Below are positions 18,591 through 63,815 of a stretch of 64,000 nucleotides of DNA, piece after piece (the stretch's first letter is position 1; the number at the start of each line of letters is the position of its first letter). The stretch comes from an uncultured Flavobacteriaceae bacterium. GTDB taxonomy: Bacteria > Bacteroidota > Bacteroidia > Flavobacteriales > Flavobacteriaceae. Under the pieces are notes generated by a model. That model saw nothing but the letters and a program-made list of their open reading frames with translations, made no database searches and was not told the origin of the DNA. The translations under genes and the position numbers were made by a program. The stretch is taken from assembly GCA_913020475.1 (NCBI GenBank), contig CAJVZM010000001.1, forward strand, positions 18,701 to 82,700. The letters run 5' to 3'.

Positions 18591-18708
18591 TTTTTACTGC
18601 AATATTTTACGTTTTCCCAATCTCTTTCCCATTTCTTTCTCCAATGAAAAGGGCGCTGGCATTTTGGGCAAGTTTTTGTGGGCAGGTGCTCTTTTTTGAC
18701 CCCTCTCA

Positions 18709-20010: not shown

Positions 20011-20015
20011 TAAAA

Positions 20016-20714: not shown

Positions 20715-20721
20715 TTTGTAT

Positions 20722-36915: not shown

Positions 36916-37118
36916 TGTATTTTGATTTGTTGGATATACAATTCCTTAGGTTTCACAGCGAATTTTATCCTCAATATTTAAGGCTCCCTATTTATAATTG
37001 GGTTGTAAACATAAAACTTAAAATGACGAGGATCAATTGTAAAATATTTTTTTTCAATTCTTAAAATCAAGAATGCTTGTAAAGAAAGTTTTATACACCA
37101 TAAAAATAAAATACAAAT

Positions 37119-38441: not shown

Positions 38442-38462
38442 ACTGTAAATATGGTAGTTTTT

Positions 38463-40037: not shown

Positions 40038-40044
40038 ACAATTA

Positions 40045-41427: not shown

Positions 41428-41461
41428 AATCTATGTTAGTTAAAGTTTAATGTGCATTTTA

Positions 41462-41474
41462 GTGTGCGTACACG
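41462..41474 (-). promoter_or_regulatory. PUL box copy a: GTGTGCGTACACG (gene-oriented CGTGTACGCACAC), candidate operator or leader element
   Basis: It lies in the 128-bp gap upstream of the Gfo/Idh/MocA gene, 10 nt downstream (minus strand) of the TATTTTTG box. The 13-mer is identical to the one at 47975-47987. Confidence 0.5.
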
Positions 41475-41484
41475 AACGCATTTC

Positions 41485-41492
41485 CAAAAATA
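41485..41492 (-). promoter_or_regulatory. Candidate -7 promoter box (TATTTTTG on the minus strand)
   Basis: Plus-strand CAAAAATA is the reverse complement of TATTTTTG, which fits TAnnTTTG. It lies 57 nt upstream of the ATG at 41427. Confidence 0.4.
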
Positions 41493-41555
41493 AAGTTTTT
41501 TTTGAATATTGCTACTTATTTAAGATTTTAAATGTTAGCTGTTAAAAAAATCAAA

Positions 41556-43436
41556 TTACCTTACTTTATTCATAGTCCCATTTAGAACATTTAATCCATG
41601 ATTGAGAACCCTAACAACGTACTTATTGGGGTCACTATTGATTTGATTTTTAGCGGGGACCTCCAAAGTTCGGAGTGCATCTTGAAAATCATCCAAAACC
41701 AAAGCAGCTTGTAATCGGGTCCACTCGTTTTCTGCCTCTAATCCTTGAGATAATATTTTTAATATTTCATTTGATGATGAGCGATGCTTAAGTAGTGCTC
41801 TGGCGGCACTAATACTTACATTAATAATAGAGTCATTAAGTCTTTGTTTCAAGCGTTGACTGGTCCTTTTTTTTATTTTTTTATCCAAATTGTAAATGCC
41901 TTGTCCTGCCCAATATCGAACGGCTTCGTTAGGGTGGGTAAGCCCATCAAACAAGGTCTTTTCATCCGCTGTTGAGGACATCAGTAGCAAGTCATCATAA
42001 AAATACTCTTGAGCTCTAATCCATTCATAAATAGATTGATTGTTCTTTTCTTCCCACCGCCTCATTATGGCCTCGGGTATCAAGCCTACATCCAAAACAT
42101 TTTTCATCCATTTGTCGTGTTCGGACCGGAGTCTAGTTAGCACCTCTTTCATCTTGGGATCATTGGCCAAGTCATTGAATTCCATTGGATCTTTTTGTAA
42201 GTCAAATAAGGATTCAGTAGGCTTGGTTGTAGCCAACAATTGTTGCCCTACTGGCTTTAATGACCCTGCTATTTCAGCCTTTCTAAGTTCTGCCATCATA
42301 GGTCCTCCCTCTGGGGTATTCATGAATTGAATAAAAGGTTTTTTGGGCTCGTAATACCGCAGGTACTTATAACGTTTACTTCTTACTCCTCTTTGGATGT
42401 CATAGCGTTCATCCATTCTACCTCTAGCCAAATAAACATACTCTCTTTCCGCTTTTTGTTTTTCTCCAAGAAAAACTTTCCCTTGCATGGTTTTCGGAAT
42501 TTCTGCTCCAGCCAACTTAATGATAGTGGGAGCTAAGTCAATAAAACTGACCAATTGATTTACCTCGCTTCCTGGTTGGGCGGGATACAGTTCTTTGAAT
42601 TTTTCTGGAATATATATGATAAAAGGAACTTTTACCCCCGTATCAAAGAGCCATCTTTTGTGTCTGGGCAATCCGGTTCCATGATCGGAGTAAAAAAATA
42701 CGATGGTATTTTCACTTTCCCCGGCAGCATCGAGTTCACCGAGTATCTTTTCAACCACTGCATCCATAGTTGCTATATTGTCATAATGTCGGGTTAGTAG
42801 TGCTCTTGTTTCGGGCGTATCTGGAAAGTAGGGAGGGACCACTATTTTACTGGAGTCTGTCCTTAAGTGATTGGGAAGATCTTTGGTCAGTCGCTCGTGT
42901 TTATCTTTATCGTTTATGCAACTTTCGTGAGTCATGATTAAGTTAAAAATTGAAAAGAAAGGGGTACTATTATTAGGTCGGTTTTTCCAGTGAGCCGTTT
43001 TACTCGATTCGTCCCATATTTTCCTTTTCAAATTAAAGTTATAATCCTCTTTGGTGTTGTTGGTACAATAATAACCAGACTTTCTCAATACCTCAGGATA
43101 GAGTTTTACCTCATCTGGAATTCTTCCTGTACTTTTCATAGCATTAGAGAAAGACCGCATATGCAGCGTTCCTAAAGAGGAGGGATACATTCCAGTGACG
43201 ATGGCGTTTCGTGCCGGAGCACAAACGGGCGCATTGGCAATGGCATTATTGTATAAAAATCCCTTTGAGGCTAGAGCATCCAATGAAGGGGTGTAGGCAA
43301 GGGAATCTCCATAACATCCAAGATTAGTGCTAATGTCTTCAACGGTAATCCACAATATGTTGGGTGGGGGAGATGAGACCTCTTGGCAACCGTTAAGCCC
43401 CAAAAATAACATTAAGGCAATTATATTTCCATTCAT
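41556..43436 (-). CDS. S1 sulfatase with C-terminal HEAT-like repeat extension, lipoprotein
   Basis: 626 aa with lipobox GLNGC. NILWITVEDIS and the formylglycine motif CAPARNAIVTG are present. The C-terminal ~170 aa (HPNEAVRYWAGQG..., SISAARALL, NEWTRLQAALVL) look like HEAT/armadillo repeats. Confidence 0.8.
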   Translation of the reverse strand: MNGNIIALMLFLGLNGCQEVSSPPPNILWITVEDISTNLGCYGDSLAYTPSLDALASKGFLYNNAIANAPVCAPARNAIVTGMYPSSLGTLHMRSFSNAMKSTGRIPDEVKLYPEVLRKSGYYCTNNTKEDYNFNLKRKIWDESSKTAHWKNRPNNSTPFFSIFNLIMTHESCINDKDKHERLTKDLPNHLRTDSSKIVVPPYFPDTPETRALLTRHYDNIATMDAVVEKILGELDAAGESENTIVFFYSDHGTGLPRHKRWLFDTGVKVPFIIYIPEKFKELYPAQPGSEVNQLVSFIDLAPTIIKLAGAEIPKTMQGKVFLGEKQKAEREYVYLARGRMDERYDIQRGVRSKRYKYLRYYEPKKPFIQFMNTPEGGPMMAELRKAEIAGSLKPVGQQLLATTKPTESLFDLQKDPMEFNDLANDPKMKEVLTRLRSEHDKWMKNVLDVGLIPEAIMRRWEEKNNQSIYEWIRAQEYFYDDLLLMSSTADEKTLFDGLTHPNEAVRYWAGQGIYNLDKKIKKRTSQRLKQRLNDSIINVSISAARALLKHRSSSNEILKILSQGLEAENEWTRLQAALVLDDFQDALRTLEVPAKNQINSDPNKYVVRVLNHGLNVLNGTMNKVR

Positions 43437-43437
43437 T

Positions 43438-45000
43438 TTAATTAGATGATAAGTTATTCAATATTACTTCAACCATTTCATCATTGGTAATCTTAAAATT
43501 TTTAACATCTTTAACAACGATCTGTTTGGGGTATCCTTCCCCTTTAATCTTAATGTCCGTTAATTCAGAATTTTTAACATCATCCATCACAATAGACGGT
43601 CTGTAATCCTTTTCTTCTGCTTCAAGACTTATGTTTTTTAGTTTGAGTCCTGAAACATGTCTAACGTATAGTCCCCAGGCTGGCAATTCACCAAACATAC
43701 TGAATTCTGGATAACTTTCTTTTTTTTCAGGGACTCCATCCATTCGCCAGGTAGGCATATTGGCATAGGCTTGATTCCCTCCCCCAGGATATCTGATGAT
43801 TACATTTTCAATACTGATATTTTTTACATCGTATCCTGGAATGCCCGTAATCGAAGATGGGAATATATTGTGAAAGAAAGGCAACATGGGGCCTCTTATT
43901 TCATAATCTTTATCGGGAATTCCTTTGGGAACGCTAACATCAATATTTTTGATCTCCACATTTTTCAAACTTCCCACAGCACCAGGTGCGTTTCGGTTTC
44001 CCAATTTTATAAAAATAGCATTTCCAGTGTTGATTGCTTTGATATTCCTAACTTTTACACCGTCAACAAATCCTCCGTCTACTGCCTCTATGGCAATTGC
44101 AGACCGATAGGTATCATAAATTTCTAGGTTTTCTAACTCAATGTTTTTGAATCCACCGTGTGATGCGGTTCCAAATTTTACGGCACTTGCACTGGATCTG
44201 ACTCTACAGTTGGAAACATAAATGTTTTCACAATAGGAGAACTTGTGATGTGATTTAAAACATATGGCATCATCAGCGGCATTGATATCGCTGTTGGTTA
44301 TTCGCACATTTTTACTGTCCACCAAATCTATTCCGTCATTATTCCAATACACATCGCTTTCCAATTTTATTTGATCAATTTCTACCGAGTCACATAGCTC
44401 AATTTTTGTAACCCATTCTGCGCCATTTTTTAGAGTTACGCCTTTAATCTGAATATTTTTTGATTGATTAAAAAAAATAAGGTTAGGCCTTCCTCCTTCG
44501 TTTGGTCTTTTCCTTCTTTCATTATAGCTCCTGGAGATTTTGAAATAATCTTGAGGATTACTATAATAAAGACTGTCCAAAGCTAAAGCTAAATATCCTC
44601 CTTGGCCATTTACAGTGCCAAAGCCGGTAAGCTTGATATTATTCCTAAAATGAGCACTTATTAATGCAGTGTTGTGTCGTGTCATAAGGGTGTCTTTTGA
44701 GACTACTTTTTTGTAATCAAAAGGATTTTTGCTACCCAATAAAACGGCTTCTGCTTCAAAAAAAAGTTCGATATCATCCTTAAGTTCAATACTTCCACTG
44801 AGAAACTCTCCAGCAGGAAATATAATTTTCCCTCCACCTTTATCACTCACCTGGTCAATCAAATTTTGTATGGCCGTGGTATTTAGTGTTTTCGCATCTC
44901 CAATTATTCCATAATCGGTCACCACATATTCAGATCTGATGGAGCTAATAAATGATGATAAAATCAATAAAAGGCTTAGAAAGATTATTCTTGAATTCAA
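43438..45000 (-). CDS. GH28-like glycoside hydrolase (parallel beta-helix)
   Basis: 520 aa with a signal peptide. It has VTDYGIIGDAKTLNTTAIQNLID, then the GH28 motif series NNDGIDL, ADDAICFKS, GTASHGG and RSAIAIE. Confidence 0.75.
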   Translation of the reverse strand: MNSRIIFLSLLLILSSFISSIRSEYVVTDYGIIGDAKTLNTTAIQNLIDQVSDKGGGKIIFPAGEFLSGSIELKDDIELFFEAEAVLLGSKNPFDYKKVVSKDTLMTRHNTALISAHFRNNIKLTGFGTVNGQGGYLALALDSLYYSNPQDYFKISRSYNERRKRPNEGGRPNLIFFNQSKNIQIKGVTLKNGAEWVTKIELCDSVEIDQIKLESDVYWNNDGIDLVDSKNVRITNSDINAADDAICFKSHHKFSYCENIYVSNCRVRSSASAVKFGTASHGGFKNIELENLEIYDTYRSAIAIEAVDGGFVDGVKVRNIKAINTGNAIFIKLGNRNAPGAVGSLKNVEIKNIDVSVPKGIPDKDYEIRGPMLPFFHNIFPSSITGIPGYDVKNISIENVIIRYPGGGNQAYANMPTWRMDGVPEKKESYPEFSMFGELPAWGLYVRHVSGLKLKNISLEAEEKDYRPSIVMDDVKNSELTDIKIKGEGYPKQIVVKDVKNFKITNDEMVEVILNNLSSN

Positions 45001-45018
45001 TTCTTTAAATTTTATTGG

Positions 45019-46569
45019 TTATTCAATTCCGTATTGTTTAGCCCATTCGGAATAATATTTTTTAAATTCTTCAACCTTCTCAGGTTCCTCTAGCACTAAA
45101 TTTCTCCCCTCAACAGGATCTTTTTTCAAATTGTACAACTCCCACTCCCCCTTGTAAGCCACTAATTTCCAGTTGCCATCCCTAACAGCCTTTCCATGTT
45201 GCCATTGCCAAAATAGAGGTTCCTTTCTTATGACGAGAGGCTCACCAACCATCTGTGGTAAAAAACTTTTTCCAGGGCTAGCAAAAATGACATCATTATT
45301 TAGCATCTTTGGGTAATCTGCTCCAGCAATCTCTTGGAGGGTAGGGAGGAAGTCAATAAAATGGACTACTTGATGAGTAACCGATCCCTTATTTTTGATT
45401 TTCTCTGGCCAATATGCAATTAGTGGAGTTTTGATTCCTCCTTCATGGCTCCAGTTTTTGTATTCTCTATATGGTGTATTACTTACATTAGCCCAATTTT
45501 TCCCCAGTGACTTCCAATTAGTCAATGTACCGATTTTCCCATACCCTCCCGGTAAATTAACGACTTCACTGGATCCACCATTATCGGAAGTAAAAAGAAT
45601 AAGCGTGTTGTTCAGTTTTCCTACTTGCTCTAATTTTGTTAGTATTCTACCGATGTTTTGATCCAATCGATCAATCATTGCTGCATATACAGCCATGGTT
45701 CTACTTTCTTTTGTTTTTTCCGCAATACTTAAGCTTTCCCATTTGGTGTGTTTTGCATGGGAAAGCACTGTATTTTCGGGAAGAATACCCAAGCGTTTTT
45801 GCTTTTCAAATCTTTGCTTACGAATTGCTTCATAGCCCACACTATAACGTCCTCTATACTTTTCAATGTCCTCCGGCCAAGCCATCAAAGGGTCATGGGG
45901 GGCAGTGTAGGAAAGGTACAGAAAAAAAGGTTTTTCGGATTCGATTTGTTCCATCCAATTCAATGCATAATCGGTAAAAACATCGGTTGTATAAAAGTTT
46001 TTGGATTTGGGAGTGTAGGGATTGATAATTTCTCCTTCAATAACCCAATTGCGATAGCTGATGGGTTTTTTTGTTAGTCCTTTTTGGGCAGGTTGACCTT
46101 CCCCCTCTCTCTCTAAGCCAGGATTGAAGTGATTAGATGCACCATCTAACAGCCCACTGTAGTGGTCAAACCCTCGAAAGACCGGATTTTCTGTACTGTG
46201 ATGTTTACCTGACCAAAGAGTTGTATATCCCTCCGATTGAAATAATTCTCCCAATGTAATGGCATTACGAAGGGGTTGACTAAAGCTCTTGTGATATCCC
46301 GTTTGTTGAGAATACAATCCAGTGAGTATTGTTGCTCGTGAAGGAAAACACTTAGAGGTATTGTAGGCATTGGTAAATCGAACTCCCTCAAAAGCCAAAC
46401 GGTCGATGTTGGGTGTTGATATTTCACTACCATATGCTCCCAAATCTGAATAGCCCATATCATCGACCAAAATCAATATGACGTTGGGGCGATTATCTAT
46501 ACTTGGTGATCTTTGACAATTGGATAGAGTGGTAAAAAGAATTAAAAAAAATAATAATCTATAACTCAC
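45019..46569 (-). CDS. Arylsulfatase-type S1 sulfatase, lipoprotein
   Basis: 516 aa with lipobox LSNC. NVILILVDDMGYSDLG, CFPSRATILTG, GKHH and SDNGG are present. Confidence 0.85.
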   Translation of the reverse strand: MSYRLLFFLILFTTLSNCQRSPSIDNRPNVILILVDDMGYSDLGAYGSEISTPNIDRLAFEGVRFTNAYNTSKCFPSRATILTGLYSQQTGYHKSFSQPLRNAITLGELFQSEGYTTLWSGKHHSTENPVFRGFDHYSGLLDGASNHFNPGLEREGEGQPAQKGLTKKPISYRNWVIEGEIINPYTPKSKNFYTTDVFTDYALNWMEQIESEKPFFLYLSYTAPHDPLMAWPEDIEKYRGRYSVGYEAIRKQRFEKQKRLGILPENTVLSHAKHTKWESLSIAEKTKESRTMAVYAAMIDRLDQNIGRILTKLEQVGKLNNTLILFTSDNGGSSEVVNLPGGYGKIGTLTNWKSLGKNWANVSNTPYREYKNWSHEGGIKTPLIAYWPEKIKNKGSVTHQVVHFIDFLPTLQEIAGADYPKMLNNDVIFASPGKSFLPQMVGEPLVIRKEPLFWQWQHGKAVRDGNWKLVAYKGEWELYNLKKDPVEGRNLVLEEPEKVEEFKKYYSEWAKQYGIE

Positions 46570-47953
46570 GTATCTTAATGTTTTTGAACTTTACGTCTCC
46601 TGGACTGTGATCTTGAAGTAATATTCTCCCACTACTTCCCACTCCAAAGCCACTGTGATTTGCATATTTACTTTTTTTGATCAGATTTTTCATCGATTGG
46701 GAATACCGATTGTATTCGACAACTTTAATATTGTTGATCCAGTGTTGGACGTTTCCACCATTTACAACAATTCTAACTTTGTTCCATCGATCAGCGCCAT
46801 TGGCTCTTATGTCTTCGCGATTAGCCTCAGATAGGTTTTCGGCTGCAATTAGATCATAAAGAGATCCTATGGTTCTGTTGCCGTCAACTCCTTTGTGATA
46901 ATCGGGATGGTCCTTGTCAAGTAACTGAAACTCTAATCCAATACCTCTGCCATCCCCTTTAGTCAATGCATCTACAAAGTATTTGACACCACTATTACCA
47001 CCTTTCTTTAACATTACGTCAACCTCCAATTCAAAATTGTCAAATTTTTCCTGGGTAACAATATCTCCAGCTTTTTTATAATCTTTCGATTCTTCATGCT
47101 TTAAAAAGAGTATAGTTCCATCAACAATTTCTATCCCGTGTTTTGGGAAATTTTCAGATTTGGCTCCTTTCCAGCCCCTGGTAGTTTTCCCATCCCAAAG
47201 CAACCTCCAACCTTTTTTCACTTCCTCAAGGGTAAGTGTATTGGTCAAATAGCTGACTTGCCTCGCGTGTGGTTGATTTTTTGATCTGTATTGCTCCGGA
47301 TTTTCTGTAATAATTCTGATATTTTTCCATTGAATGGTCTTCCCTTCTTGATCCTTGTCTTTAATAGAGTGGACTTGTAGGGCGATAAACCCCCTTTGTG
47401 TCATGTCGTCAACAAGGTTGGCACATTGAACCCCGTTCAGGAAAGTTTTGATTGTGTTGCCAATGGCTTCAATTCTCACCTTATTCCATTCACCATTATT
47501 AAAAGCAGCGCTTCCTTTGGAGTTGATGGTTAGGGGATATAGCCAACCTCTGCGTGCTTCGTCAAAAATTCCTGCTGACCATGCTCTCTCACTTGTATCC
47601 AGTTCGGACTGATATCCGTGCACACGACCATCTTTAAATTCCTTCATCGAGTTAGATCTAAATTGGATTCCGGAATTCAATCCCGGCGCAACCAATACTT
47701 CCAGTTCTAGGATAAAATCACTATAATATTCTTTAGTACACAAAAAAGTATTTGGCGTCCCGATTTGGGAGGTACCAACAATGGTGTTTTTGACTATTTG
47801 GTATTTAGCGGTTCCATTTTTCACCTCCCAATCTTTCAAATCTTTCCCATTAAAAAGGGATTTCCATGGAGTTTGAGAGCTTGTATTAGAACATAAAAAT
47901 AAAGCCAATGATAGGATGAACAATTGACTAAAAAAGTTAAATTTGGTTTTCAT
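46559..47953 (-). CDS. Tandem DUF1080 (two 3-keto-disaccharide-hydrolase-like domains) secreted protein
   Basis: I place the start at the ATG at 47953 (MKTKFNFFSQLFILSLALFLCS). The 18-codon extension in the track reads through the promoter and PUL box. There are two repeats: FNGKDLKDWEV...IQWKNIRI and LWDGKTTRGWKG...VKFKNIKI. Confidence 0.7.
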   Translation of the reverse strand: MKTKFNFFSQLFILSLALFLCSNTSSQTPWKSLFNGKDLKDWEVKNGTAKYQIVKNTIVGTSQIGTPNTFLCTKEYYSDFILELEVLVAPGLNSGIQFRSNSMKEFKDGRVHGYQSELDTSERAWSAGIFDEARRGWLYPLTINSKGSAAFNNGEWNKVRIEAIGNTIKTFLNGVQCANLVDDMTQRGFIALQVHSIKDKDQEGKTIQWKNIRIITENPEQYRSKNQPHARQVSYLTNTLTLEEVKKGWRLLWDGKTTRGWKGAKSENFPKHGIEIVDGTILFLKHEESKDYKKAGDIVTQEKFDNFELEVDVMLKKGGNSGVKYFVDALTKGDGRGIGLEFQLLDKDHPDYHKGVDGNRTIGSLYDLIAAENLSEANREDIRANGADRWNKVRIVVNGGNVQHWINNIKVVEYNRYSQSMKNLIKKSKYANHSGFGVGSSGRILLQDHSPGDVKFKNIKIREL

Positions 47954-47974
47954 TATACAACTAATTAAGGTTTT

Positions 47975-47987
47975 GTGTGCGTACACG
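47975..47987. promoter_or_regulatory. PUL box copy b: GTGTGCGTACACG in the divergent promoter region
   Basis: It lies in the 82-bp gap between divergent operons (ATG 47953 minus, GTG 48036 plus). It abuts the minus-strand TACATTTG box and overlaps a plus-strand TAAGGTTTTG near-box. Confidence 0.5.
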
Positions 47988-47995
47988 CAAATGTA
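47988..47995 (-). promoter_or_regulatory. Candidate -7 promoter box (TACATTTG on the minus strand)
   Basis: Plus-strand CAAATGTA is the reverse complement of TACATTTG, which fits TAnnTTTG. It lies 34 nt upstream of the ATG at 47953. Confidence 0.4.
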
Positions 47996-48035
47996 GCAAA
48001 AAAGCAATGATGGTCAATATAAAAAAAATCAAAGT

Positions 48036-49577: not shown

Positions 49578-49651
49578 ATCGATTAAACCAAATAAATCCT
49601 ATTTATTTCATCTAGTTTTCTGGAAAGGATTTGTGATGGTTGTTTTATGTT

Positions 49652-51136: not shown

Positions 51137-51287
51137 ATTTTACTAATTAGTTATTAATAAGGAGGTTTGAGTGGGCATAAAAATTCTACAGACTTTTTTG
51201 TCAGAAAATTTCAAATTAGCACTCCTTTGCAAAAACGAAGATGTTAAGAAAAACAAAAAAAAATAAAAATTTGTGCAAAGTTTTTGT

Positions 51288-51295
51288 TAAGTTTG
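51288..51295 (+). promoter_or_regulatory. Candidate -7 promoter box for susC (TAAGTTTG)
   Basis: It fits TAnnTTTG exactly and lies 70 nt upstream of the susC ATG. Confidence 0.4.
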
Positions 51296-51312
51296 TCTGA
51301 ATAGAAACTTTT

Positions 51313-51324
51313 GTGTGCGCACAC
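51313..51324 (+). promoter_or_regulatory. PUL box copy c: GTGTGCGCACAC, a perfect 12-bp palindrome
   Basis: It lies 17 nt downstream of the TAAGTTTG box and 41 nt upstream of the susC ATG at 51366. Confidence 0.5.
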
Positions 51325-51365
51325 TATTTAATGCACATAAAATTAACGATATAACAATTTAAAAT

Positions 51366-54300
51366 ATGAAAATTAAAAATCATCACTTTTTAGTGACGTT
51401 AATGCTTTTTTTGACAGTCAATTTGAGCTTTTCGCAAAAAACTATTACCGGAAATGTCTCCGATGAATCAGGAGTGCCTCTACCTGGAGTCAATGTGATC
51501 ATTAAAGGTACGCAAGATGGAACTTCCACAGATTTCGATGGAAATTATTCAATCACAACTTCAGACGATGATGTGTTAACTTTCTCCTACGTTGGTTTTT
51601 TGGACCAAGAAATTGATGTCGCCAATGCTGACTCATTTAATGTATCCTTGGAAATGGGATCAGACGAATTAGAAGAGATTGTTTTGACAGGTTATGGATC
51701 GGTTAAAAAGAGAGATTTGACAGGAGCCATTGCCCAAATTAAAACAGAGGTAATTCAGAGAGCCAATCCAATTCAAACTGCTGCATCCCTCCAGGGACAA
51801 GCTGCCGGTGTGTTGATTACTAAAAATTCAAGTAGACCCGGTGATGAATTTGATATTAACATAAGAGGTCTAAATAACTTTGATGACGAAAAAACAAAAC
51901 CCTTAGTAGTTGTTGATGGAATTCTAGGAGCTAATATTGATGATATTAATCCAGTTGATATTCAGACTATTGATGTTCTCAAAGATGCTTCCTCTACTGC
52001 AGTTTACGGTTCTCGTGGCGCTAATGGTGTTATTATTATAACCACTAAAAAGGGTTCATCAGGAAAACCTAGTGTATCTTATAATGGTTATTATGGTATA
52101 AGAACAAAGGCTCATATTCCAAATATTATGAATTCTCAGCAGTTTTACGAAATGTACAAAGATGAAGATAGATATGGTAGAGGTTTTACAGCTCAAGAAA
52201 TGTACAATGTAAATAATGGGATTACCACCGATTGGTTAGATTTAGTAACACGTGATGCGATTCAACAAAATCATACAATTTCAGTTTCAGGTGGATCTGA
52301 TTCAACAACTTATAATTTCTCAGCTGGGAAACAATTGGAAGAGGGTCTTGTTAATTATTCAGACTATGGTCGTTTAAGTTTAAACGCGGGTATTGAAAGT
52401 ATTGTATCAGACAAATTTAAAGTTGGATTTACTGCTTATATTACCGATAATGAAAGAAATTGGGGATCTGATTCAGCAGTAAGATCTGCAATGAGAGTAA
52501 GGCCGACCGCTACTCCTTATTTTGATAATATTGTTGAACCAAACAAACGTGACACTAATTTTGGTCCTGTCGGAGATTATGCTTTCTTTATGGGTATTAA
52601 TGACTCTCAATCAATTAATCCATTGGTTGAAATTGATCCTGATAACTTTCAAAGACAAAGAAGGTCTAACTCAATAATTGCTAATGTATATCTTGAGTAT
52701 GAATTATTTCCAGATTTAAAATTAAAAACTTCATATTCTGCGTACAGTAACAATCAAAGAGAAGGACAATATATAGGGACGAACACTAAAAATAACAAAG
52801 GATCAAAAAATCCATATGCCTCAACAATTCAAACCAAAACTTCCAATTACACACTTGATAACACTTTGACCTATTTAAAGCAATTCGGAAAGCATTCCAT
52901 CAACGCTACAGCTCTTTTCAGTGTTTTTGAAGAGTATAATACAGCAATGAACATTAATGTACAGGATCTCCCTTATAAGTCACTGTGGCATGGTCTAAAT
53001 ACTGGGGCAACTATTGAATCTTATGGTTCCAGTTTAAGTGAGTATGCGATTGTATCTTACATGGGAAGAATTAATTATAGTTTTGATGATAAATATCTGT
53101 TAACGATTACTGGCCGACAAGACGGAGCATCTCAGTTAGCCGAGGGAAATAAATGGGCTTTTTTCCCATCAGCTGCAGTTGGCTGGAGATTATCTGAGGA
53201 ATCTTTTGTTAAAGGGCTCGGAGTTTTTAATAATTTAAAATTAAGAGCTAGTTATGGAGAAGTTGGAAATAATTCAAGTATTAGCCCATATGCCACTCAG
53301 GCAAATATTTTTCAGACCTTCTATGATTTTGGTGGAAATCCATCATCAGGCTACACAATAAATACTTTGGCAAATCAAGGAGTTGTGTGGGAGAGGAGTA
53401 AAGAGGTTAATTTTGGTTTAGACTTTTCCTTGAGCGGCATCCAATTAAGCGGAACGGTTGAATATTATAAAAGAAATACTGAAGATTTAATTTTAGATGA
53501 TAAAGTTCCAAATTCTACAGGATTTAACAATGTACTGGATAATGTGGGAGAAATTGAAAATAGTGGTATTGAAGTCACACTTAATTCTGTAAATTTAAGT
53601 AAAGGAGATTTTAAATGGTCTTCTAACTTAACTTTTACCGCTAATGATGATAAAGTTATAAAGCTTGCTGGTGGTCTTACTGAGGATATAGGAAATAAAC
53701 GATTTGTTGGAGAGTCTGTTAAAGCATATTATACTTATAAGTTCGATGGCATTTGGCAACTTGGACAGGAGGCTGAAGCAGCTGAATTTAAACAAGTGCC
53801 GGGACAAGTAAGAATTCGTGACCTTAATGGTGATAAAAAAATTAATACTGATGATAGAATGATAGTTGGTAAGGGTACTCCAGATTGGACGGCTGGTTTG
53901 AGAAATCAGTTCAATTATAAAAATTGGGATATGTCCTTTTTTGTATATACTAGGCAAGGTCAAATGTATTCAAATGAATTTTTGAATGCTACATATGGAA
54001 AAATTGAAGACGATCGTTACAATAGATCTACAGATATTGATTATTGGACTCCCGAAAATCCAAGTAATACATACTATAATCCAGTAACTGGTCCGGGACT
54101 AAGTAGTAAAAATGAAAAAAAGGGAGGTACTTCTCGAGTCGGATTGAGTTACCAGTTAGCAGATTTTGTAAGAATTTCAGATGTTACAATGGGATATAGC
54201 TTACCTAGTGAGATTTTAAGTGAACTTGGTGTATCAAGATTTAGAGTTTACGGTCAAGTTCAGAACCCATTTATTTTTACTGATTTCCTATCCTTTGATC

Positions 54301-54377
54301 CTGAATTTAATTCAGGAGGTGGTGATGATGGTCTCCCTGCTCTTACTTTATTAGTTGGGGTTAACATTAATTTTTAA
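51366..54377 (+). CDS. susC: SusC/RagA family TonB-dependent outer membrane transporter
   Basis: 1003 aa. It has a carboxypeptidase-regulatory-like N-terminus (ITGNVSDESGVPLPGVNVIIKGT), plug motifs (LTGYGSVKKRDLTGAI, DVLKDASSTAVYGSRGANGVIIITTKKG) and a terminal aromatic residue (NINF). Confidence 0.9.
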   Translation: MKIKNHHFLVTLMLFLTVNLSFSQKTITGNVSDESGVPLPGVNVIIKGTQDGTSTDFDGNYSITTSDDDVLTFSYVGFLDQEIDVANADSFNVSLEMGSDELEEIVLTGYGSVKKRDLTGAIAQIKTEVIQRANPIQTAASLQGQAAGVLITKNSSRPGDEFDINIRGLNNFDDEKTKPLVVVDGILGANIDDINPVDIQTIDVLKDASSTAVYGSRGANGVIIITTKKGSSGKPSVSYNGYYGIRTKAHIPNIMNSQQFYEMYKDEDRYGRGFTAQEMYNVNNGITTDWLDLVTRDAIQQNHTISVSGGSDSTTYNFSAGKQLEEGLVNYSDYGRLSLNAGIESIVSDKFKVGFTAYITDNERNWGSDSAVRSAMRVRPTATPYFDNIVEPNKRDTNFGPVGDYAFFMGINDSQSINPLVEIDPDNFQRQRRSNSIIANVYLEYELFPDLKLKTSYSAYSNNQREGQYIGTNTKNNKGSKNPYASTIQTKTSNYTLDNTLTYLKQFGKHSINATALFSVFEEYNTAMNINVQDLPYKSLWHGLNTGATIESYGSSLSEYAIVSYMGRINYSFDDKYLLTITGRQDGASQLAEGNKWAFFPSAAVGWRLSEESFVKGLGVFNNLKLRASYGEVGNNSSISPYATQANIFQTFYDFGGNPSSGYTINTLANQGVVWERSKEVNFGLDFSLSGIQLSGTVEYYKRNTEDLILDDKVPNSTGFNNVLDNVGEIENSGIEVTLNSVNLSKGDFKWSSNLTFTANDDKVIKLAGGLTEDIGNKRFVGESVKAYYTYKFDGIWQLGQEAEAAEFKQVPGQVRIRDLNGDKKINTDDRMIVGKGTPDWTAGLRNQFNYKNWDMSFFVYTRQGQMYSNEFLNATYGKIEDDRYNRSTDIDYWTPENPSNTYYNPVTGPGLSSKNEKKGGTSRVGLSYQLADFVRISDVTMGYSLPSEILSELGVSRFRVYGQVQNPFIFTDFLSFDPEFNSGGGDDGLPALTLLVGVNINF

Positions 54378-54395
54378 TCCTAAATCAGCCATACA

Positions 54396-56276
54396 ATGAA
54401 AATTTTAAAAGAAATTAAAAAAGAAATGAAAACATTAAATAAAATTTTAATCACTTTCTCTTTATTGGTTGCAATGAGTTGTGAGCCTGAATCTCTTCTT
54501 AAAGAGGAGAGTATTTCAAATCAAACTGCTGAAGCATATTTTTCTACTACTTCCGGTTTTGAAGATTTGAGTAAGTCAATTTATCCACTTTTAAGACCTA
54601 TAGCTCAACTTAGGTCACTAACTTTAAATGGAACTGATATTTTTACAGGTAGTGGTGGTTATAGAAATATTGATACTGGACTCAATGTTAATATTGATAC
54701 TTATGGACCTGAACTCACTGCTGGTATATCTGAAGTTCAAGACTTTTGGGTTTACCATTATAAAGCAATAAATCGAGCAAATACGCTTATTTCAAGAGCT
54801 GAAACGATTGAAACTGTAGGGTCATATGCGTCTACGCGTGATGTTAGAGTTGGAGAAGCAAAGTTTATTAGGGCATATTGCCTTTTTTCACTTGTTCAGC
54901 AATTTGGTGATATTCCGATGCCTCTTTCAGAAACTATTAGTGCTAATAAAGAAGTAGTAAGGGTCCCTTCTGCCGAAGTCTACTCACGAATAATTACTGA
55001 TTTGACTGAAGCTGAAGCAGTTTTACCCGCATCTGCATCTGATTATGGTAGAGCCAACAAAGGAGCAGCCCAACATCTCCTTGCAAGAGTTTATTTAACT
55101 AGAGGTTGGAATTTTGGAAATTCATTGGGAGGGACAGCTGCTGATTTTGAACAAGCAAGAGTTTATGCTGACAAAGTTATTGCTGCTCATCCAATGGTAT
55201 CGGATTATAAGGATCTTTTTCCGAAAAAGAATGAAAATGTAACAGATCAAACTCATGGTCCCGGTGATCAAAATTACAAAAACAGTGAAACAATATTATC
55301 TGTTCAATATTCCAATAGCCCTCTTTATAGTGTTGGGGAAAACTCTGATGCAATTGGGGGTGACGATATTCCGGATGATTGGGGTAATAATTCACATAGT
55401 ATTTTTGGTGGATCTCATGATGAATGTCCTGGGAGTCCAGGTAGAACATCTGACTACAACAGACAATTGGGTTATCACAGTACTGTGCCTGGTGTTTGGC
55501 GACTTTTTGATCCTGAGACTGATACAAGATATCATTTAAACTTTGTCGAAAAGGTTTATGCTGTCGTTGATAATCCTGGATTTGTTCCTGCAGATGGTGT
55601 TGCTGCAATTGATATCAAAGCTGGCGATGTAGTTGTCGAGTATAGAGATTGGAATAATCCAGCGACTACCCTAGCAGAAAGAGGAAAGGATGTAGGAGGA
55701 AATATGGATTACGCCGTAATTAATATTGATCAGCTCGGAAAAATAGATGAATCTAATTATCATAACAACAGTAAGCACCCAATGATGTGGAAGTTTTGGG
55801 AGCCAGGTATTGAGTATGGCAACGGTTACGGCGAATTTGACCAACCACTTATGAGGTCTTCAGAGGCATACCTTATAGCTGCTGAGGCTATAGTAAAGGG
55901 TGCTAGTGCTGGATCTGTTGGTTCAGCGGTTGACTATTACAATACAGTTGTTGATCGAGCAGTTGGTGGATCTGGTGCTGATGCCGATATGGCTGCTGAT
56001 CCAAATGATTTAAGTTCAACTACTGCCAAAAGCTACCGAGCTTCAGGATCTGTTACAATTGAAATGATTTTGGATGAAAGAGCACGTGAGTTTATGGGTG
56101 AGGGACTTAGATGGTATGATTTAAAAAGAACAGGGACTTTAATTAGTAGAAGTAAAGCATTCAATCCATGGATAGGTGCCCTTAATTATATTCAAGAATA
56201 CCACTATTTAAGACCTATTCCACTATCTGAAATTGATCTAGCTACCAACGATGTAAGCCAAAACCCTGGCTACTAA
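54396..56276 (+). CDS. susD: SusD/RagB family nutrient-binding lipoprotein
   Basis: It lies directly after susC. The lipobox is LVAMSC, and the true start may be the ATG at 54426 (MKTLNKILITF). ERAREFMGEGLRWYDLKRTG is the SusD C-terminal signature. Confidence 0.85.
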   Translation: MKILKEIKKEMKTLNKILITFSLLVAMSCEPESLLKEESISNQTAEAYFSTTSGFEDLSKSIYPLLRPIAQLRSLTLNGTDIFTGSGGYRNIDTGLNVNIDTYGPELTAGISEVQDFWVYHYKAINRANTLISRAETIETVGSYASTRDVRVGEAKFIRAYCLFSLVQQFGDIPMPLSETISANKEVVRVPSAEVYSRIITDLTEAEAVLPASASDYGRANKGAAQHLLARVYLTRGWNFGNSLGGTAADFEQARVYADKVIAAHPMVSDYKDLFPKKNENVTDQTHGPGDQNYKNSETILSVQYSNSPLYSVGENSDAIGGDDIPDDWGNNSHSIFGGSHDECPGSPGRTSDYNRQLGYHSTVPGVWRLFDPETDTRYHLNFVEKVYAVVDNPGFVPADGVAAIDIKAGDVVVEYRDWNNPATTLAERGKDVGGNMDYAVINIDQLGKIDESNYHNNSKHPMMWKFWEPGIEYGNGYGEFDQPLMRSSEAYLIAAEAIVKGASAGSVGSAVDYYNTVVDRAVGGSGADADMAADPNDLSSTTAKSYRASGSVTIEMILDERAREFMGEGLRWYDLKRTGTLISRSKAFNPWIGALNYIQEYHYLRPIPLSEIDLATNDVSQNPGY

Positions 56277-56295
56277 AGGAAATATTTTTTAAACC

Positions 56296-56336
56296 AAAAC
56301 CCGTTTTTGATGATTAACAAAAACGGGTTTTTTTTT
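56296..56336 (+). terminator. Rho-independent terminator after susD
   Basis: There is a 13-bp perfect stem AAAACCCGTTTTT/AAAAACGGGTTTT with a 10-nt loop, running into a T run. It lies 20 nt after the susD stop. Confidence 0.7.
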
Positions 56337-56379
56337 ATTTTTATTAAATAAAATTAGAGCTTTCATTTTGATCCATTCA

Positions 56380-57573
56380 ATGAGGTATTTTTATATTTTT
56401 ATATTTTTCACTCTAACTATTTCCGGGCAATATAATTTTGATAATCTCGAAAAGAGAATGCGTCAATTTATTGATGAAAAGGAATTGGTAGGCTTTCAAA
56501 CTATTATTATTAAAGAAGGGAAGGTGATTCATTACGATAAATACGGGTTTGCAGATCTAGAGCAAAAAAAACCAATTCAAGACAACAGTATCTTTAGAAT
56601 TGCTTCTATCACCAAATGCATCGTTGCGGTAGGGATCATGAAGCTTTATGATCAAGGTTATTTTAAGTTAAATGATCCAATAGGGCAATACATTCCTGAA
56701 TATCAAAATCCGATGGTTTTCCAACCTGACGGTTCTCTAAAACCAGCATCAAATCCTATCAGAATAATAGATGTTTTACGTCACACCACAGGCATTGGTA
56801 AGCTTTATCCTTTTTTAAGAGAAAAGTATAATGAGCTAAAAAGAAATCCGTCTTATGACTTAAAAATGGAAATCATGCGAATGAGTAAAATTCCATTGGC
56901 TGCAGATCCAGGAACTCAGTGGATTTATAGTCCATCGGTAAGTCTTGGAGCCTATTTGGTTGAAAAATTGACAGGTACTAAAATCGAAGACTACTTAAAA
57001 TCAGAAATTTTTGATCCTTTACAGATGGAGGATACCTTTTTTGAGATTCCAAAAGAGAAGTATGATCGATTTACTACTGGCTATTTATTAAACAAAAAAG
57101 GGGGATATTCAGTTATCGATCACCCAAGCAATTCTCCCTACACTCAAAAAGTAACTTTTTGTAATCCTGCAGGTGGATTGGCTTCTACCATAAAGGATTT
57201 CTCAAAATTCTGCCTCATGCTTTTGAACAATGGTACTTATAAGGGGCAAAAAATATTGGAAAAACAAACTGTTCAATTAATGATACAAGACCAACTCGAG
57301 GGTATTAAAAACGGGAGACCCAGTGATGACATTCACAAACCCAACGACGCCATAGGCTTCGGTTTCACATTCAATGTCATAAGAAATATTGATGACTATC
57401 CATACCCAGGAAGTCAGGGTAGTTATGGCTGGCATGGATCGTGGGGTCCTTATTTTAAAATCGATCCTAAAGAGAATTTGGTGATGATACTGATGACTCA
57501 AATGAAAGGATGGGATCATTCTAGAAAAGAGATTTTTGAAAACTATGTTTACAATGCAATCCTCAAGAATTGA
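56380..57573 (+). CDS. Serine hydrolase of the beta-lactamase/class C esterase family, secreted
   Basis: The ATG at 56380 (MRYFYIFIFFTLTISGQ) is preferred over the TTG at 56368. The S-x-x-K motif is in FRIASITK, and YS and W/HG elements occur later. Confidence 0.8.
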   Translation: MRYFYIFIFFTLTISGQYNFDNLEKRMRQFIDEKELVGFQTIIIKEGKVIHYDKYGFADLEQKKPIQDNSIFRIASITKCIVAVGIMKLYDQGYFKLNDPIGQYIPEYQNPMVFQPDGSLKPASNPIRIIDVLRHTTGIGKLYPFLREKYNELKRNPSYDLKMEIMRMSKIPLAADPGTQWIYSPSVSLGAYLVEKLTGTKIEDYLKSEIFDPLQMEDTFFEIPKEKYDRFTTGYLLNKKGGYSVIDHPSNSPYTQKVTFCNPAGGLASTIKDFSKFCLMLLNNGTYKGQKILEKQTVQLMIQDQLEGIKNGRPSDDIHKPNDAIGFGFTFNVIRNIDDYPYPGSQGSYGWHGSWGPYFKIDPKENLVMILMTQMKGWDHSRKEIFENYVYNAILKN

Positions 57574-57721
57574 TTCCTCTACTTTCATTAAACATTTTTA
57601 TATAGATAATAATATTATAAATTTTAATTAACTTAATTACAGTTTATTAGAGACATTTTTTTTTACAAGAATTTTAGACATGAAAAATATTTTTTATTTA
57701 TAAATAAATTATATTTACTAA

Positions 57722-57735
57722 CGTGTTCGCGCACG
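57722..57735 (+). promoter_or_regulatory. PUL box copy d: CGTGTTCGCGCACG (degenerate copy)
   Basis: It matches gene-oriented CGTGTACGCACAC at 11 of 13 positions. It lies 4 nt downstream of the near-consensus box TATATTTA (57710-57717) and 13 nt upstream of the TTG start at 57749. Confidence 0.4.
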
Positions 57736-57748
57736 AAAAATATAAAAA

Positions 57749-59173: not shown

Positions 59174-59182
59174 ATTGTAAAC

Positions 59183-60400: not shown

Positions 60401-60401
60401 A

Positions 60402-62774: not shown

Positions 62775-62785
62775 AAATAGTATAA

Positions 62786-63805: not shown

Positions 63806-63815
63806 AAAAAAATAG

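What the first reader, a model, noticed from the sequence alone, without database searches (positions are those of the whole stretch)
41462..57735. GC-rich palindromic box GTGTnCGCrCAC recurs just downstream of promoter boxes in four intergenic regions of the sulfatase PUL
Read directly from the sequence:
- 41462-41474: GTGTGCGTACACG
- 47975-47987: GTGTGCGTACACG (identical 13-mer)
- 51313-51324: GTGTGCGCACAC (perfect 12-bp palindrome)
- 57722-57735: CGTGTTCGCGCACG

Written in the direction of the downstream gene, all four fit yGTGTnCGCrCAC. Each lies in one of the few true intergenic gaps of the locus. Each is also 0-17 nt downstream of a Bacteroidetes -7-type box (TATTTTTG, TACATTTG, TAAGTTTG, near-consensus TATATTTA), which is about where transcription should start.

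The four sites lie ahead of these units:
- the Tat-Gfo/DUF6807 unit
- the tandem-DUF1080/sulfatase/GH28 unit and its divergent sulfatase pair
- susC/susD
- the sulfatase/enolase-like/GH92 unit

I did not notice the box in intergenic regions outside the PUL. No HTCS, SusR, ECF sigma/anti-sigma, LacI, GntR or AraC gene is present in the window. The box is therefore the only visible handle on co-regulation. It could be an operator for a trans-encoded repressor sitting on the start site, or a shared 5' leader element.

Caveat: I computed no background. Exact 13-mer repeats are not rare in 64 kb of AT-rich DNA. The argument rests on the GC-rich palindromic nature of the box and its consistent promoter-proximal placement.
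Basis: partly seen in the sequence, partly recalled or inferred. Interest (0 to 1): 0.75.

Follow-up and report, generated by a model that had tools for sequence, protein, structure and literature searches.

The report
LacI-type operator controlling a sulfatase PUL
The repeated GC-rich palindrome is real and is most likely the binding site of a LacI-family sugar repressor, encoded just outside the window, that switches off four promoters of a marine flavobacterial sulfated-polysaccharide gene cluster; it is a useful but ordinary kind of regulatory site.

Summary
Four copies of GTGTNCGNACAC (the fourth with one mismatch) lie at the stated coordinates against about 0 expected, all in intergenic gaps of the PUL. 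Each starts 1-17 nt after a Bacteroidetes -7 box, so it covers or directly follows the predicted transcription start.

In syntenic loci of related uncultured marine Flavobacteriaceae the 12-mer is 93-100% conserved at the same four positions, while most flanking sequence is only 26-62% identical.

Walking beyond the right edge of the PUL in relatives uncovered a LacI-family regulator. It is transcribed divergently from a hexuronate catabolism operon (MFS-Gfo-SDR-uxuA-uxaC-dctPQM). In five lineages carrying an ortholog, in Lutibacter sp. A80 (51% identity, two boxes) and in a Mariniphaga MAG (39%), the same box sits next to the regulator gene. In two TARA contigs the regulator lies on the same contig as orthologs of the window's Sulf4, enolase-like and Gfo2 genes.

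The box is an even palindrome with a central CG, the LacI-family hallmark. It is therefore best read as a LacI-type repressor operator that joins the PUL to uronate catabolism. This is a new member of a known kind. Binding, effector and presence of the regulator in this genome are untested.

The parts
41462..41473 (-). Operator s1 (GTGTACGCACAC in gene orientation), ahead of the Tat-Gfo / DUF6807-DUF1080 / purple acid phosphatase unit. Predicted position +8 to +19.
   Evidence: Orthologous perfect sites in L081, L082/L002, L083/L086 and L162; one-mismatch variants in L085 and L089. Box identity 1.00 against 0.52-0.83 in the flanks.
41485..41492 (-). -7 promoter box TATTTTTG of the s1 unit, 11 nt upstream of the operator.
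   Evidence: Conserved in relatives (up13-24 identity 0.83). The -7 box occupies -12 to -5 (PMC9723704).
47975..47986 (.). Operator s2 in the divergent region between the tandem-DUF1080/sulfatase/GH28/sulfatase-HEAT unit (- strand) and the sulfatase pair (+ strand). Predicted position -3 to +9 for the - strand promoter.
   Evidence: Perfect orthologous sites in L081, L082, L083, L084, L089 and L162. Box identity 1.00.
47988..47995 (-). -7 promoter box TACATTTG of the - strand unit, 1 nt from the operator.
   Evidence: up1-12 identity 0.87.
51313..51324 (+). Operator s3 (perfect 12-bp palindrome GTGTGCGCACAC) ahead of susC/susD. Predicted position +14 to +25 in the window and +2/+3 in relatives.
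   Evidence: Orthologous sites in L001, L002/L082, L081 and L089. Box identity 0.94 against 0.26-0.47 in the flanks.
51288..51295 (+). -7 promoter box TAAGTTTG of susC, 17 nt upstream of the operator (5-6 nt in relatives).
57723..57734 (+). Operator s4 (GTGTTCGCGCAC, one mismatch to the palindrome) ahead of the sulfatase / enolase-like / GH92 / Gfo2 unit. Predicted position +2 to +13.
   Evidence: Orthologs are perfect (GTGTTCGCACAC or GTGTTCGTACAC) in L001, L081, L089/L003 and L085. Box identity 0.93.
57710..57717 (+). -7 promoter box TATATTTA of the s4 unit, 5 nt upstream of the operator.
34603..64000 (.). The PUL whose four promoters carry the operator. Gene content: GH78, purple acid phosphatase, DUF6807-DUF1080, Tat-Gfo, sulfatase-HEAT, GH28, sulfatases, tandem DUF1080, susC, susD, beta-lactamase-like, enolase-like, GH92, Gfo2, and a further sulfatase cut by the window end.
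   Evidence: Pfam. The cut sulfatase at the right edge was seen. The PUL continues in relatives with more sulfatases, GH88, PhoD and the LacI gene.

Best explanation
The box is the operator of a dimeric LacI-family repressor. The 12-bp core is GTGTNCGNACAC, which extends weakly to cGTGTrCGyACACg. The repressor is not encoded in the window.

In related genomes its gene lies at the far end of the same PUL, past further sulfatase, GH88 and PhoD genes. There it is divergent from a hexuronate catabolism operon (MFS transporter, Gfo-type oxidoreductase, SDR, uxuA, uxaC, dctPQM, DUF4861, pfkB), which carries the same box.

Proposed mechanism: without substrate, the repressor sits on the box at or just downstream of the transcription start of four PUL promoters and blocks initiation or early elongation. 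One site serves the divergent promoter pair. When the sulfated, uronate-containing glycan is degraded at a basal level, a cytoplasmic uronate-derived metabolite binds the repressor's periplasmic-binding-protein-type domain, and all units are released together.

Shown here:
- existence, enrichment and placement of the sites;
- their conservation;
- co-occurrence of the box with the LacI gene across lineages;
- physical linkage of that gene to the PUL in relatives;
- LacI-type geometry of the motif;
- a canonical HTH and hinge in the protein.

Inferred, not shown: presence of the regulator in this genome, actual binding, the sign of regulation, and the effector.
For: (1) Enrichment and placement. 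There are 4 sites against about 0 expected, all intergenic. In about 493 kb of clade sequence there are 32 distinct perfect sites, all in the roughly 9% not covered by long ORFs. My crude ORF caller placed three of them inside ORFs, but these are orthologs of intergenic sites.

(2) Footprint. Box identity is 0.93-1.00 among orthologs against 0.26-0.87 in the flanks, and the only other conserved block is the -7 box. The box is lost where Sulf3 identity falls to 62% or below.

(3) Position. The box starts 1-17 nt after TAnnTTTG (modal 5-6 nt in relatives). The -7 box occupies -12 to -5 (PMC9723704), so the operator covers about -3 to +25. That is a repressor position.

(4) Regulator link.
- L164 has a LacI gene with a perfect box between it and the MFS-uxu operon.
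- Every ortholog neighbourhood fetched has a box with 0 or 1 mismatch in the same gap (L165/166/168, L169/170, L171/172, L173, L174).
- Lutibacter sp. A80 (51% identity) has two perfect boxes there.
- A Mariniphaga homolog (39%) has GTGCACGTACAC about 100 bp upstream.

(5) Physical linkage. L165/L167 carry Sulf4 (82%), a box, the enolase-like gene (81%), GH92, Gfo2 (76%), a sulfatase, GH88, PhoD and LacI on one contig. L176 bridges GH92-Gfo2 to the sulfatase/heparinase-like block that precedes LacI in L164.

(6) Motif type. The box is an even palindrome with a central CG, the LacI-family signature (1173 of 1303 TFs, PMC4052901).

(7) Protein. It has PF00356 LacI HTH and Peripla_BP_4 domains. 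Its head aligns without gaps to CcpA and LacI structures and keeps the hinge leucine.

(8) Regulon logic. Other boxes precede susC genes, an enolase-GH92 operon, and a second PUL with heparinase-II/III-like genes and GH88 nearby. All of these are consistent with uronate-releasing glycan breakdown.
Against: - The regulator gene is not in the window. It could not be shown in the closest relatives either, because three assemblies break right after the terminal sulfatase. Its presence in this genome is therefore inferred from relatives at 76-82% protein identity.
- The conserved core is 12-14 bp, shorter than the 16-22 nt usual for LacI-family motifs.
- The recognition helix is nearly identical among many paralogs of this subfamily, so which paralog binds here is uncertain.
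- L006 has the same gene block at 84% SusC identity but no box, so control is not universal.
- No binding, expression or start-site data exist. TSS positions are extrapolated from the -7 box.
- The genome-wide frequency of the box in the source genome could not be measured.
Confidence: 0.8

Rival explanations
1. The box is an operator for a repressor of another family. The obvious candidate is a GntR-type protein (HutC or FadR subfamily), as with AusR of the Zobellia alginate PUL. On this view the LacI gene next to the box is merely one more regulated target.
For: The core contains GT-N4-AC, which fits the loose GntR consensus NyGTNxACNy quoted in PMC7641319. AusR operators likewise sit on the -7 box of PUL promoters in a marine flavobacterium.
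Against: - No GntR gene is seen in any of the PUL or regulator loci held.
- The invariant central CG and even palindrome are LacI hallmarks.
- The spacing N4 does not fit the FadR consensus TKGTN2-3ACMA.
- The only regulator gene that travels with the box across seven lineages and three genera is the LacI gene.
Confidence: 0.07
2. The box acts in the RNA as a shared 5' leader element: a short hairpin or protein/sRNA-binding site at the 5' end of the PUL transcripts that controls stability or translation.
For: In most relatives the box starts at about +2/+3, so it would form the extreme 5' end of the mRNA. It is self-complementary.
Against: - The hairpin is only -1.3 to -1.5 kcal/mol and is not better than shuffles.
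- Positions 5 and 8 vary without keeping complementarity, for example GTGTTCGCACAC.
- There is no Rfam match.
- At s2 the box spans about -3 to +9, and in Lutibacter one box is fused to the -7 box, so the transcript would lack part of it.
- The distance to the start varies from +2 to +14.
- One copy serves two divergent genes.
- The association with a DNA-binding protein gene is unexplained by this model.
Confidence: 0.04
3. The box is not regulatory. It is a chance repeat, a remnant of promoter duplication, or a short dispersed repeat of the genome.
For: The source genome could not be scanned, so genome-wide density is unknown. Two of the four window sites are identical 13-mers.
Against: - About 0 are expected by chance.
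- Flanks of the four window sites are unrelated, so they are not duplicated segments.
- There is strict conservation across relatives with diverged flanks.
- The box is absent from 34 kb of non-PUL DNA in the window.
- Only 3 perfect hits, all coding by context, occur in the loci of distant relatives.
Confidence: 0.02

Closest known systems
LacI/GalR-family repressor operators (LacI, PurR, CcpA cre, and the many predicted sugar regulons in Ravcheev et al. 2014, PMC4052901)
   Same: - Even palindrome with an invariant central CG.
- Located within about 15-50 nt of the start codon region and overlapping the promoter or start.
- A site lies next to the regulator gene, in a divergent arrangement with a catabolic operon.
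- The protein has a PF00356 head with a conserved hinge leucine, plus a periplasmic-binding-protein-type effector domain.
- The core GTGTGCGCACAC differs from the core of the ideal symmetric lac operator GTGAGCGCTCAC at one position per half-site (own knowledge, not tested here).
   Different: - The conserved core is only 12-14 bp, against the usual 16-22 nt.
- The protein matches no NCBIfam equivalog (all scores far below cut-off).
- The regulon reaches into susC/susD and sulfatase operons of a PUL rather than a single monosaccharide operon.
- The promoters are Bacteroidetes -33/-7 type.
- Flavobacteriia were not covered by the published LacI regulon survey.
Predicted LacI-family hexuronate regulators of Bacteroides: KdgR (BT0487), UxaR (BT0824), UxuR (BT1434), UxmR (BT3613) (Ravcheev et al. 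2013, PMC3878776)
   Same: - LacI-family regulators encoded beside uxuA/uxaC/kdg-type genes in Bacteroidetes.
- A few regulons (KdgR, UxmR) were reported to include some periplasmic or extracellular proteins.
- These are comparative-genomics predictions of the same kind as made here.
   Different: - Orthology to any of them was not tested, because their sequences and site lists were not available here.
- In Bacteroides the polysaccharide-level PULs are mostly under HTCS, SusR or ECF control. Here the LacI operator sits on the susC and sulfatase promoters themselves, and no HTCS or ECF gene is seen.
AusR, the GntR-family repressor of the alginate utilization system of Zobellia galactanivorans (Dudek et al. 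2020, PMC7641319)
   Same: - A marine flavobacterium.
- A cytoplasmic one-component repressor with short palindromic operators placed on or next to the -7 box of several PUL promoters, including the TBDT promoter.
- Single, double or triple operators.
- The regulon extends to monosaccharide catabolism.
- The effector is a degradation intermediate.
   Different: - A different protein family (GntR/FadR rather than LacI) and a different motif (TKGTN2-3ACMA).
- A different substrate.
- AusR is experimentally validated; the system here is not.

Membership tests
LacI/GalR-family operator | Palindromic motif formed by inverted repeats, of even length | tested here: met
   The 12-bp core GTGTNC|GNACAC is a perfect even palindrome at s3. 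The half-site profile from 32 sites is invariant at positions 1 and 3-6 from the dyad. Criterion taken from PMC4052901.
LacI/GalR-family operator | Consensus CG pair at the centre of the palindrome | tested here: met
   CG is central in all 32 distinct perfect sites and in all four window sites. One regulator-adjacent variant has CC (L171).
LacI/GalR-family operator | Usual length of 16-22 nt | tested here: not met
   Conservation is strong over 12 bp and weak at position 7 (C in 34 of 64 half-sites). Positions 8-12 are only T/A-rich, like the background. This is a typical range rather than a strict requirement.
LacI/GalR-family operator | Sites lie in promoter regions a short distance upstream of the start codon (more than 75% within 30-140 bp) | tested here: met
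   Distances from box to the start codon are 13-194 nt for most sites. Window values by my gene starts are 34, 21/49, 41 and 14 nt, so some sit slightly closer than the typical range.
LacI/GalR-family operator | A LacI-family TF gene co-occurs with the motif, commonly with a site beside its own gene | tested here: met
   A box with 0-1 mismatch lies in the LacI-adjacent intergenic region in L164, L165/166/168, L169/170, L171/172, L173, L174, L177 and L053.
LacI/GalR-family operator | The cognate TF is present in the same genome as the sites in question | not testable with these tools
   The window holds no TF, and the source genome was not retrievable. Presence is inferred from relatives in which the gene is on the same contig as PUL orthologs.
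LacI/GalR-family operator | Specific binding of the protein to the site, relieved by a small-molecule effector | not testable with these tools
   Needs EMSA or DAP-seq and ligand screening.
LacI/GalR-family protein (the candidate regulator) | N-terminal LacI-type HTH, a hinge helix with conserved Leu, and a C-terminal periplasmic-binding-protein-fold effector domain | tested here: met
   PF00356 and PF13407. Ungapped alignment of residues 2-68 to CcpA and LacI structures, with the hinge NxxAxxLA kept. The effector domain matches 3gbv at E = 8e-37.
GntR-family (FadR-subfamily) operator, as for AusR | Consensus TKGTN2-3ACMA | tested here: not met
   The inner GT and AC are separated by 4 nt (GT NCGN AC), not 2-3. 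No GntR gene is linked to the box in any locus.
cis-regulatory RNA leader | A stable, conserved secondary structure supported by covariation | tested here: not met
   The 12-mer folds at -1.3 to -1.5 kcal/mol with z-scores of -0.9 to +0.4. The variable positions do not co-vary. There is no Rfam hit.

The most novel reading that the evidence does not exclude
A single cytoplasmic LacI-type repressor, sensing a uronate-derived catabolite, is the master switch for several sulfatase-rich PULs. These would include the window-type PUL with susC/susD, a second PUL with heparinase-II/III-like genes, and GH88/PhoD genes, together with the hexuronate pathway, in abundant uncultured marine Flavobacteriaceae. 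It would take the place of the HTCS, SusR or ECF sensors that define PUL control in gut Bacteroides. If so, the operator is also a genomic marker. It assigns uncharacterized sulfatase PULs to uronate-containing sulfated algal glycans and allows the regulon to be read directly from metagenomes.
Probability: 0.45. Interest if true: 0.55.

Novelty: new member of a known kind. Interest (0 to 1): 0.42.

Why it matters
Regulation of polysaccharide utilization loci in marine Flavobacteriia is poorly known. [quoted passage not shown]

This work gives a second, LacI-based model with a precise, testable operator and a named candidate regulator.
- It explains how a PUL with no visible sensor gene can be co-regulated across four promoters.
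- It links the PUL functionally to hexuronate catabolism, which hints that the unknown substrate contains uronic acid.
- The motif can be used to delimit the regulon in metagenome-assembled genomes.
- A cultured organism with the same regulator-box pair (Lutibacter sp. A80) makes experiments feasible.

The mechanism itself, a LacI-type repressor on a palindromic operator at the start site, is textbook.

Tried and rejected
- **Source genome.** An exact look-up of the window's SusD found nothing on record, so no genome-wide motif scan was possible.
- **Regulator in the window.** Pfam on all ORFs of 100 aa or more, and on small intergenic ORFs, found only an HU protein.
- **Regulator inside the PUL of close relatives.** None was found in L001-L004, L006 or L081-L091.
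- **Extending the very closest relatives.** The contigs of P0001 and P0003 end right after the terminal sulfatase.
- **Literature search for the motif string and variants.** Only unrelated eukaryotic primer hits came back.
- **Site lists of Bacteroides KdgR, UxaR, UxuR and UxmR.** These are not held in the supplements, so motif comparison and orthology were not done.
- **PMC12125979.** It concerns a Vibrio AraC-type XylRA and is not relevant.
- **RNA hairpin and Rfam.** Both negative.
- **AATGCACAT shared downstream of s1 and s3 in the window.** It is not conserved in relatives, so it was not treated as part of the element.
- **Snuella lapsa homolog P0237.** It could not be looked up.
- **ECF-sigma promoter.** Considered and rejected. 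The motif is palindromic, it lies downstream of a normal -7 box, and the SusC protein shows no STN signalling domain in Pfam.

Full report
**1. The observation**

They fit a 12-bp even palindrome, GTGTNCGNACAC. Three sites are perfect. The fourth (57723-57734, GTGTTCGCGCAC) has one mismatch.

The pattern GTGYGCGNACAC matches four places against 0.00 expected in dinucleotide-preserving shuffles. Allowing two mismatches adds only chance-level hits (12 found, 8.5 expected). All the additional ones lie inside coding regions.

The window is 37.9% G+C, and only about 4.5 kb of it lies outside the called genes. All four boxes are in that fraction, and all are in the PUL (34.6-64 kb). None of the roughly 15 intergenic gaps in the other 34 kb has one.

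**2. Gene context**

- s1 precedes a Tat-signal Gfo/Idh/MocA oxidoreductase, a DUF6807-DUF1080 fusion and a purple acid phosphatase.
- s2 lies between a tandem-DUF1080 / sulfatase / GH28 / sulfatase-HEAT unit and a divergent sulfatase pair.
- s3 precedes susC/susD.
- s4 precedes a sulfatase, an enolase-superfamily protein, GH92 and a second Gfo-type oxidoreductase.

A further sulfatase is cut by the window end. No transcription factor is encoded anywhere in the window. The only DNA-binding protein is an HU homolog at 6916-7188.

**3. Promoter geometry**

In the direction of the downstream gene, each box follows a Bacteroidetes -7 element:

| Site | -7 element | Spacer to box |
|---|---|---|
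| s1 | TATTTTTG | 11 nt |
| s2 | TACATTTG | 1 nt |
| s3 | TAAGTTTG | 17 nt |
| s4 | TATATTTA | 5 nt |

 In Flavobacterium psychrophilum the sigma-A box TAnnTTTG occupies -12 to -5 relative to mapped starts (PMC9723704). On that basis the boxes cover about +8..+19, -3..+9, +14..+25 and +2..+13. In relatives the spacing at s3 and s4 is 5-6 nt, so the usual position is +2/+3 to +13/+14. These are positions from which a bound protein blocks initiation or early elongation, not positions of an activator. The start sites are extrapolated, not mapped.

**4. Phylogenetic footprint**

A scan of GTDB species genomes with SusC and of JGI/ENA metagenome contigs with the sulfatase downstream of s2 returned syntenic loci from uncultured marine Flavobacteriaceae, with 70-96% protein identity gene by gene.

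The box is present at the orthologous positions:
- all four in L081;
- three in L082/L002 and L089/L003;
- two in L083/L086 and L001;
- one in L084.

One-mismatch variants occur at orthologous sites in L085 and L089.

Anchored on the box, pairwise identity is 0.93-1.00 within the 12-mer, against 0.26-0.87 in neighbouring 12-nt bins. The only other conserved block is the -7 element.

The box disappears in loci whose sulfatase is 62% identical or less. The loci of distant relatives hold only three perfect hits, all in coding context.

One near relative, L006 (SusC 84% identical), has the same gene block without boxes. Sites in L085 and L087 are partly decayed. There is therefore turnover at the edges of the clade.

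**5. Not an RNA element**

- The 12-mer folds at only -1.3 to -1.5 kcal/mol, no better than shuffles.
- Positions 5 and 8 vary without keeping complementarity.
- Rfam finds nothing at the sites.
- At s2, and at one Lutibacter site, the box overlaps the -7 box or the start and would be only partly transcribed.

**6. Finding the regulator**

The PUL runs off the right edge of the window, so I walked along relatives. L086 shows four more sulfatase-family genes after Gfo2. Homologs of its last sulfatase led to L161-L164.

In L164 (GCA_038107695.1) that sulfatase is followed by GH88, PhoD and a LacI-family gene (PF00356 + PF13407). The LacI gene is divergent from an MFS-Gfo-SDR-uxuA-uxaC operon. 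A perfect box, GTGTACGCACAC, sits between them, 8 nt after TATATTTG and 18 nt before the MFS start codon.

Homologs of this protein form a clear orthologous group at 58% identity or more. All the neighbourhoods I fetched have the same arrangement: LacI divergent from MFS-Gfo-SDR-uxuA-uxaC-dctPQM-DUF4861. All have a box with 0 or 1 mismatch in the same gap.

The same pairing is found further afield.
- Lutibacter sp. A80 (complete genome CP092480.1, 51% identity) has two perfect boxes, one fused to the -7 element.
- A Mariniphaga MAG (39% identity) has GTGCACGTACAC about 100 bp upstream of the gene.

By my own rough estimate, the chance of a hit with one mismatch or fewer in a gap of about 160 bp is of the order of 0.002. 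Finding it in seven of seven lineages is therefore not a coincidence.

**7. Link to the window's PUL**

In the TARA contigs L165/L167 the regulator lies on the same contig as orthologs of the window's genes. The order is Sulf4 (82%), a box, enolase-like (81%), GH92, Gfo2 (76%), sulfatase, GH88, PhoD, LacI. These identities equal those of box-bearing relatives such as L089.

L176 bridges GH92-Gfo2 to the sulfatase/heparinase-like block that precedes the LacI gene in L164.

I could not show the gene in the very closest relatives, because three independent assemblies end right after the terminal sulfatase. The source genome was not retrievable. Presence of the regulator in this organism is therefore an inference.

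**8. Fit to the LacI family**

According to the survey of 1303 LacI-family regulons (PMC4052901):
- motifs are even palindromes in 1251 cases;
- 1173 have a central CG;
- 72% of the TFs are autoregulated.

The box is an even palindrome with an invariant central CG. It lies 13-194 nt from start codons and sits beside the regulator gene.

The half-site profile from 32 distinct sites is c-G-T-G-T-r-C. Only weak information lies beyond 7 nt from the dyad, so the core is shorter than the usual 16-22 nt.

The protein's head aligns without gaps to CcpA and LacI structures solved on DNA, and keeps the hinge-helix leucine. In those complexes that leucine inserts at the central CpG step (established structural knowledge). 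From memory, the core is one base per half-site away from the ideal symmetric lac operator core GTGAGCGCTCAC. That is a lead, not a test.

The protein reaches no NCBIfam equivalog cut-off. Its nearest solved structure is an uncharacterized structural-genomics effector domain, 3gbv.

**9. Regulon and likely signal**

Besides the four window promoters, boxes precede:
- the MFS-uxu operon in every lineage;
- susC genes next to the regulator (L173/L174);
- an enolase-GH92-Gfo2 operon (L165/L167, L161);
- as a tandem pair 22 bp apart, a second susC/susD with heparinase-II/III-like genes (L162/L163).

GH88, heparinase-like lyases, GH28, uxaC, uxuA, a pfkB kinase and a TRAP transporter all point to uronic acids. 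I infer that the effector is a uronate-derived cytoplasmic intermediate and that the PUL substrate is a sulfated glycan containing uronic acid. The GH92, GH78 and sulfatase content suggests that mannose and rhamnose are also present. This is inference only.

**10. Comparison with known systems and novelty**

The mechanism is that of a classical LacI-type repressor.

The closest functional analogue in the same ecological setting is AusR, the GntR-family repressor of the Zobellia alginate system. Its operators also sit on the -7 box of several PUL promoters, and its effector is a degradation intermediate (PMC7641319).

LacI-family regulators beside hexuronate genes have been predicted in Bacteroides: KdgR, UxaR, UxuR and UxmR (PMC3878776). 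I could not test orthology or compare motifs.

No paper in the library holds the motif, and Flavobacteriia were not in the LacI regulon survey.

I therefore class this as a new member of a known kind. It is a previously undescribed operator-regulator pair of a familiar type. Its modest point of interest is that a one-component cytoplasmic repressor controls the susC/susD and sulfatase promoters of a large PUL that has no HTCS, SusR or ECF sensor.

**11. Verdict**

- Observation: confirmed.
- The leader-RNA alternative: not supported.
- Confidence in the LacI-operator explanation is about 0.8.
- Remaining doubt concerns which paralog acts in this genome, the sign and strength of regulation, and the effector.

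Noticed in passing
window 38463-41427, 46559-47953, 62786-63805, 1650-2579, 4169-4762: Gfo/Idh/MocA oxidoreductases recur beside DUF1080 (3-keto-disaccharide hydrolase-like) proteins and a xylose-isomerase-like TIM-barrel protein. One oxidoreductase has a twin-arginine signal (MDLNRRKFIK). This looks like an oxidative, 3-keto-glycoside route of glycan cleavage embedded in a sulfatase PUL.
   Followed up: no
window 14271-21183 (- strand): Four photolyase/cryptochrome-family genes lie in a row (two classical photolyase-type, one DPRP-type and one more), followed by an SDR and a polyketide-cyclase-like gene. This is an unusually dense light-response or repair cluster.
   Followed up: no
window 51296-51312: The spacer between the susC -7 box and the operator is 17 nt in the window but 5-6 nt in relatives. 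This is an insertion of about 12 nt that moves the operator from about +2 to about +14.
   Followed up: partly
window 41445-41457 and 51329-51339; L082 13284-13300: In the window, s1 and s3 are each followed 4-6 nt later by AATGCACAT, which can pair with the first half of the box in RNA folds. It is not conserved in relatives. At s3 of L082/L002 the box is instead followed by a different palindrome, TTGTGAAGTTCACAA.
   Followed up: partly
L162 11794-11827 (also L163): Two perfect operators (CGTGTTCGTACACG twice) lie 22 bp apart, centre to centre, ahead of a second susC/susD with heparinase-II/III-like and BNR genes. This suggests cooperative binding and a regulon that spans more than one PUL.
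   Followed up: partly
L177 9845-9924 (Lutibacter sp. A80, CP092480.1): A cultured strain has the LacI homolog (51% identity) with two perfect boxes 68 bp apart in the divergent region, next to an SDR-uxuA-uxaC-dctPQM-aldolase-kduI operon. One box is fused to the -7 element. This strain is usable for experimental tests.
   Followed up: partly
L006 9700-10005 and 16198-16400: MAG UBA3159 has the same susCD / beta-lactamase-like / sulfatase / enolase-like / GH92 / Gfo2 block (66-87% protein identity; SusC 84%) but no box at either promoter, whereas L001, with the same arrangement, keeps both. This is a possible case of regulatory loss or rewiring.
   Followed up: partly
L165 about 8750-10000 (also L166, L168): The LacI-MFS intergenic region is expanded to about 1.3 kb by an insertion that carries a 218-aa ORF of unknown function and a tandem array of GGGCAGACA units. 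The adjacent operator has one mismatch (GGGTGCGTACAC).
   Followed up: no
right ends of L086, L175 and L176: Three independent metagenome assemblies end just after the same terminal sulfatase gene of the PUL. This suggests a repeat or a strain-variable junction between the sulfatase block and the GH88-PhoD-LacI segment.
   Followed up: no
window 4844-4917 (- strand) and 6916-7188 (- strand): A tRNA gene (Rfam RF00005, 62.8 bits) and an HU-family nucleoid protein gene lie in gaps that the 100-aa ORF list left empty.
   Followed up: yes
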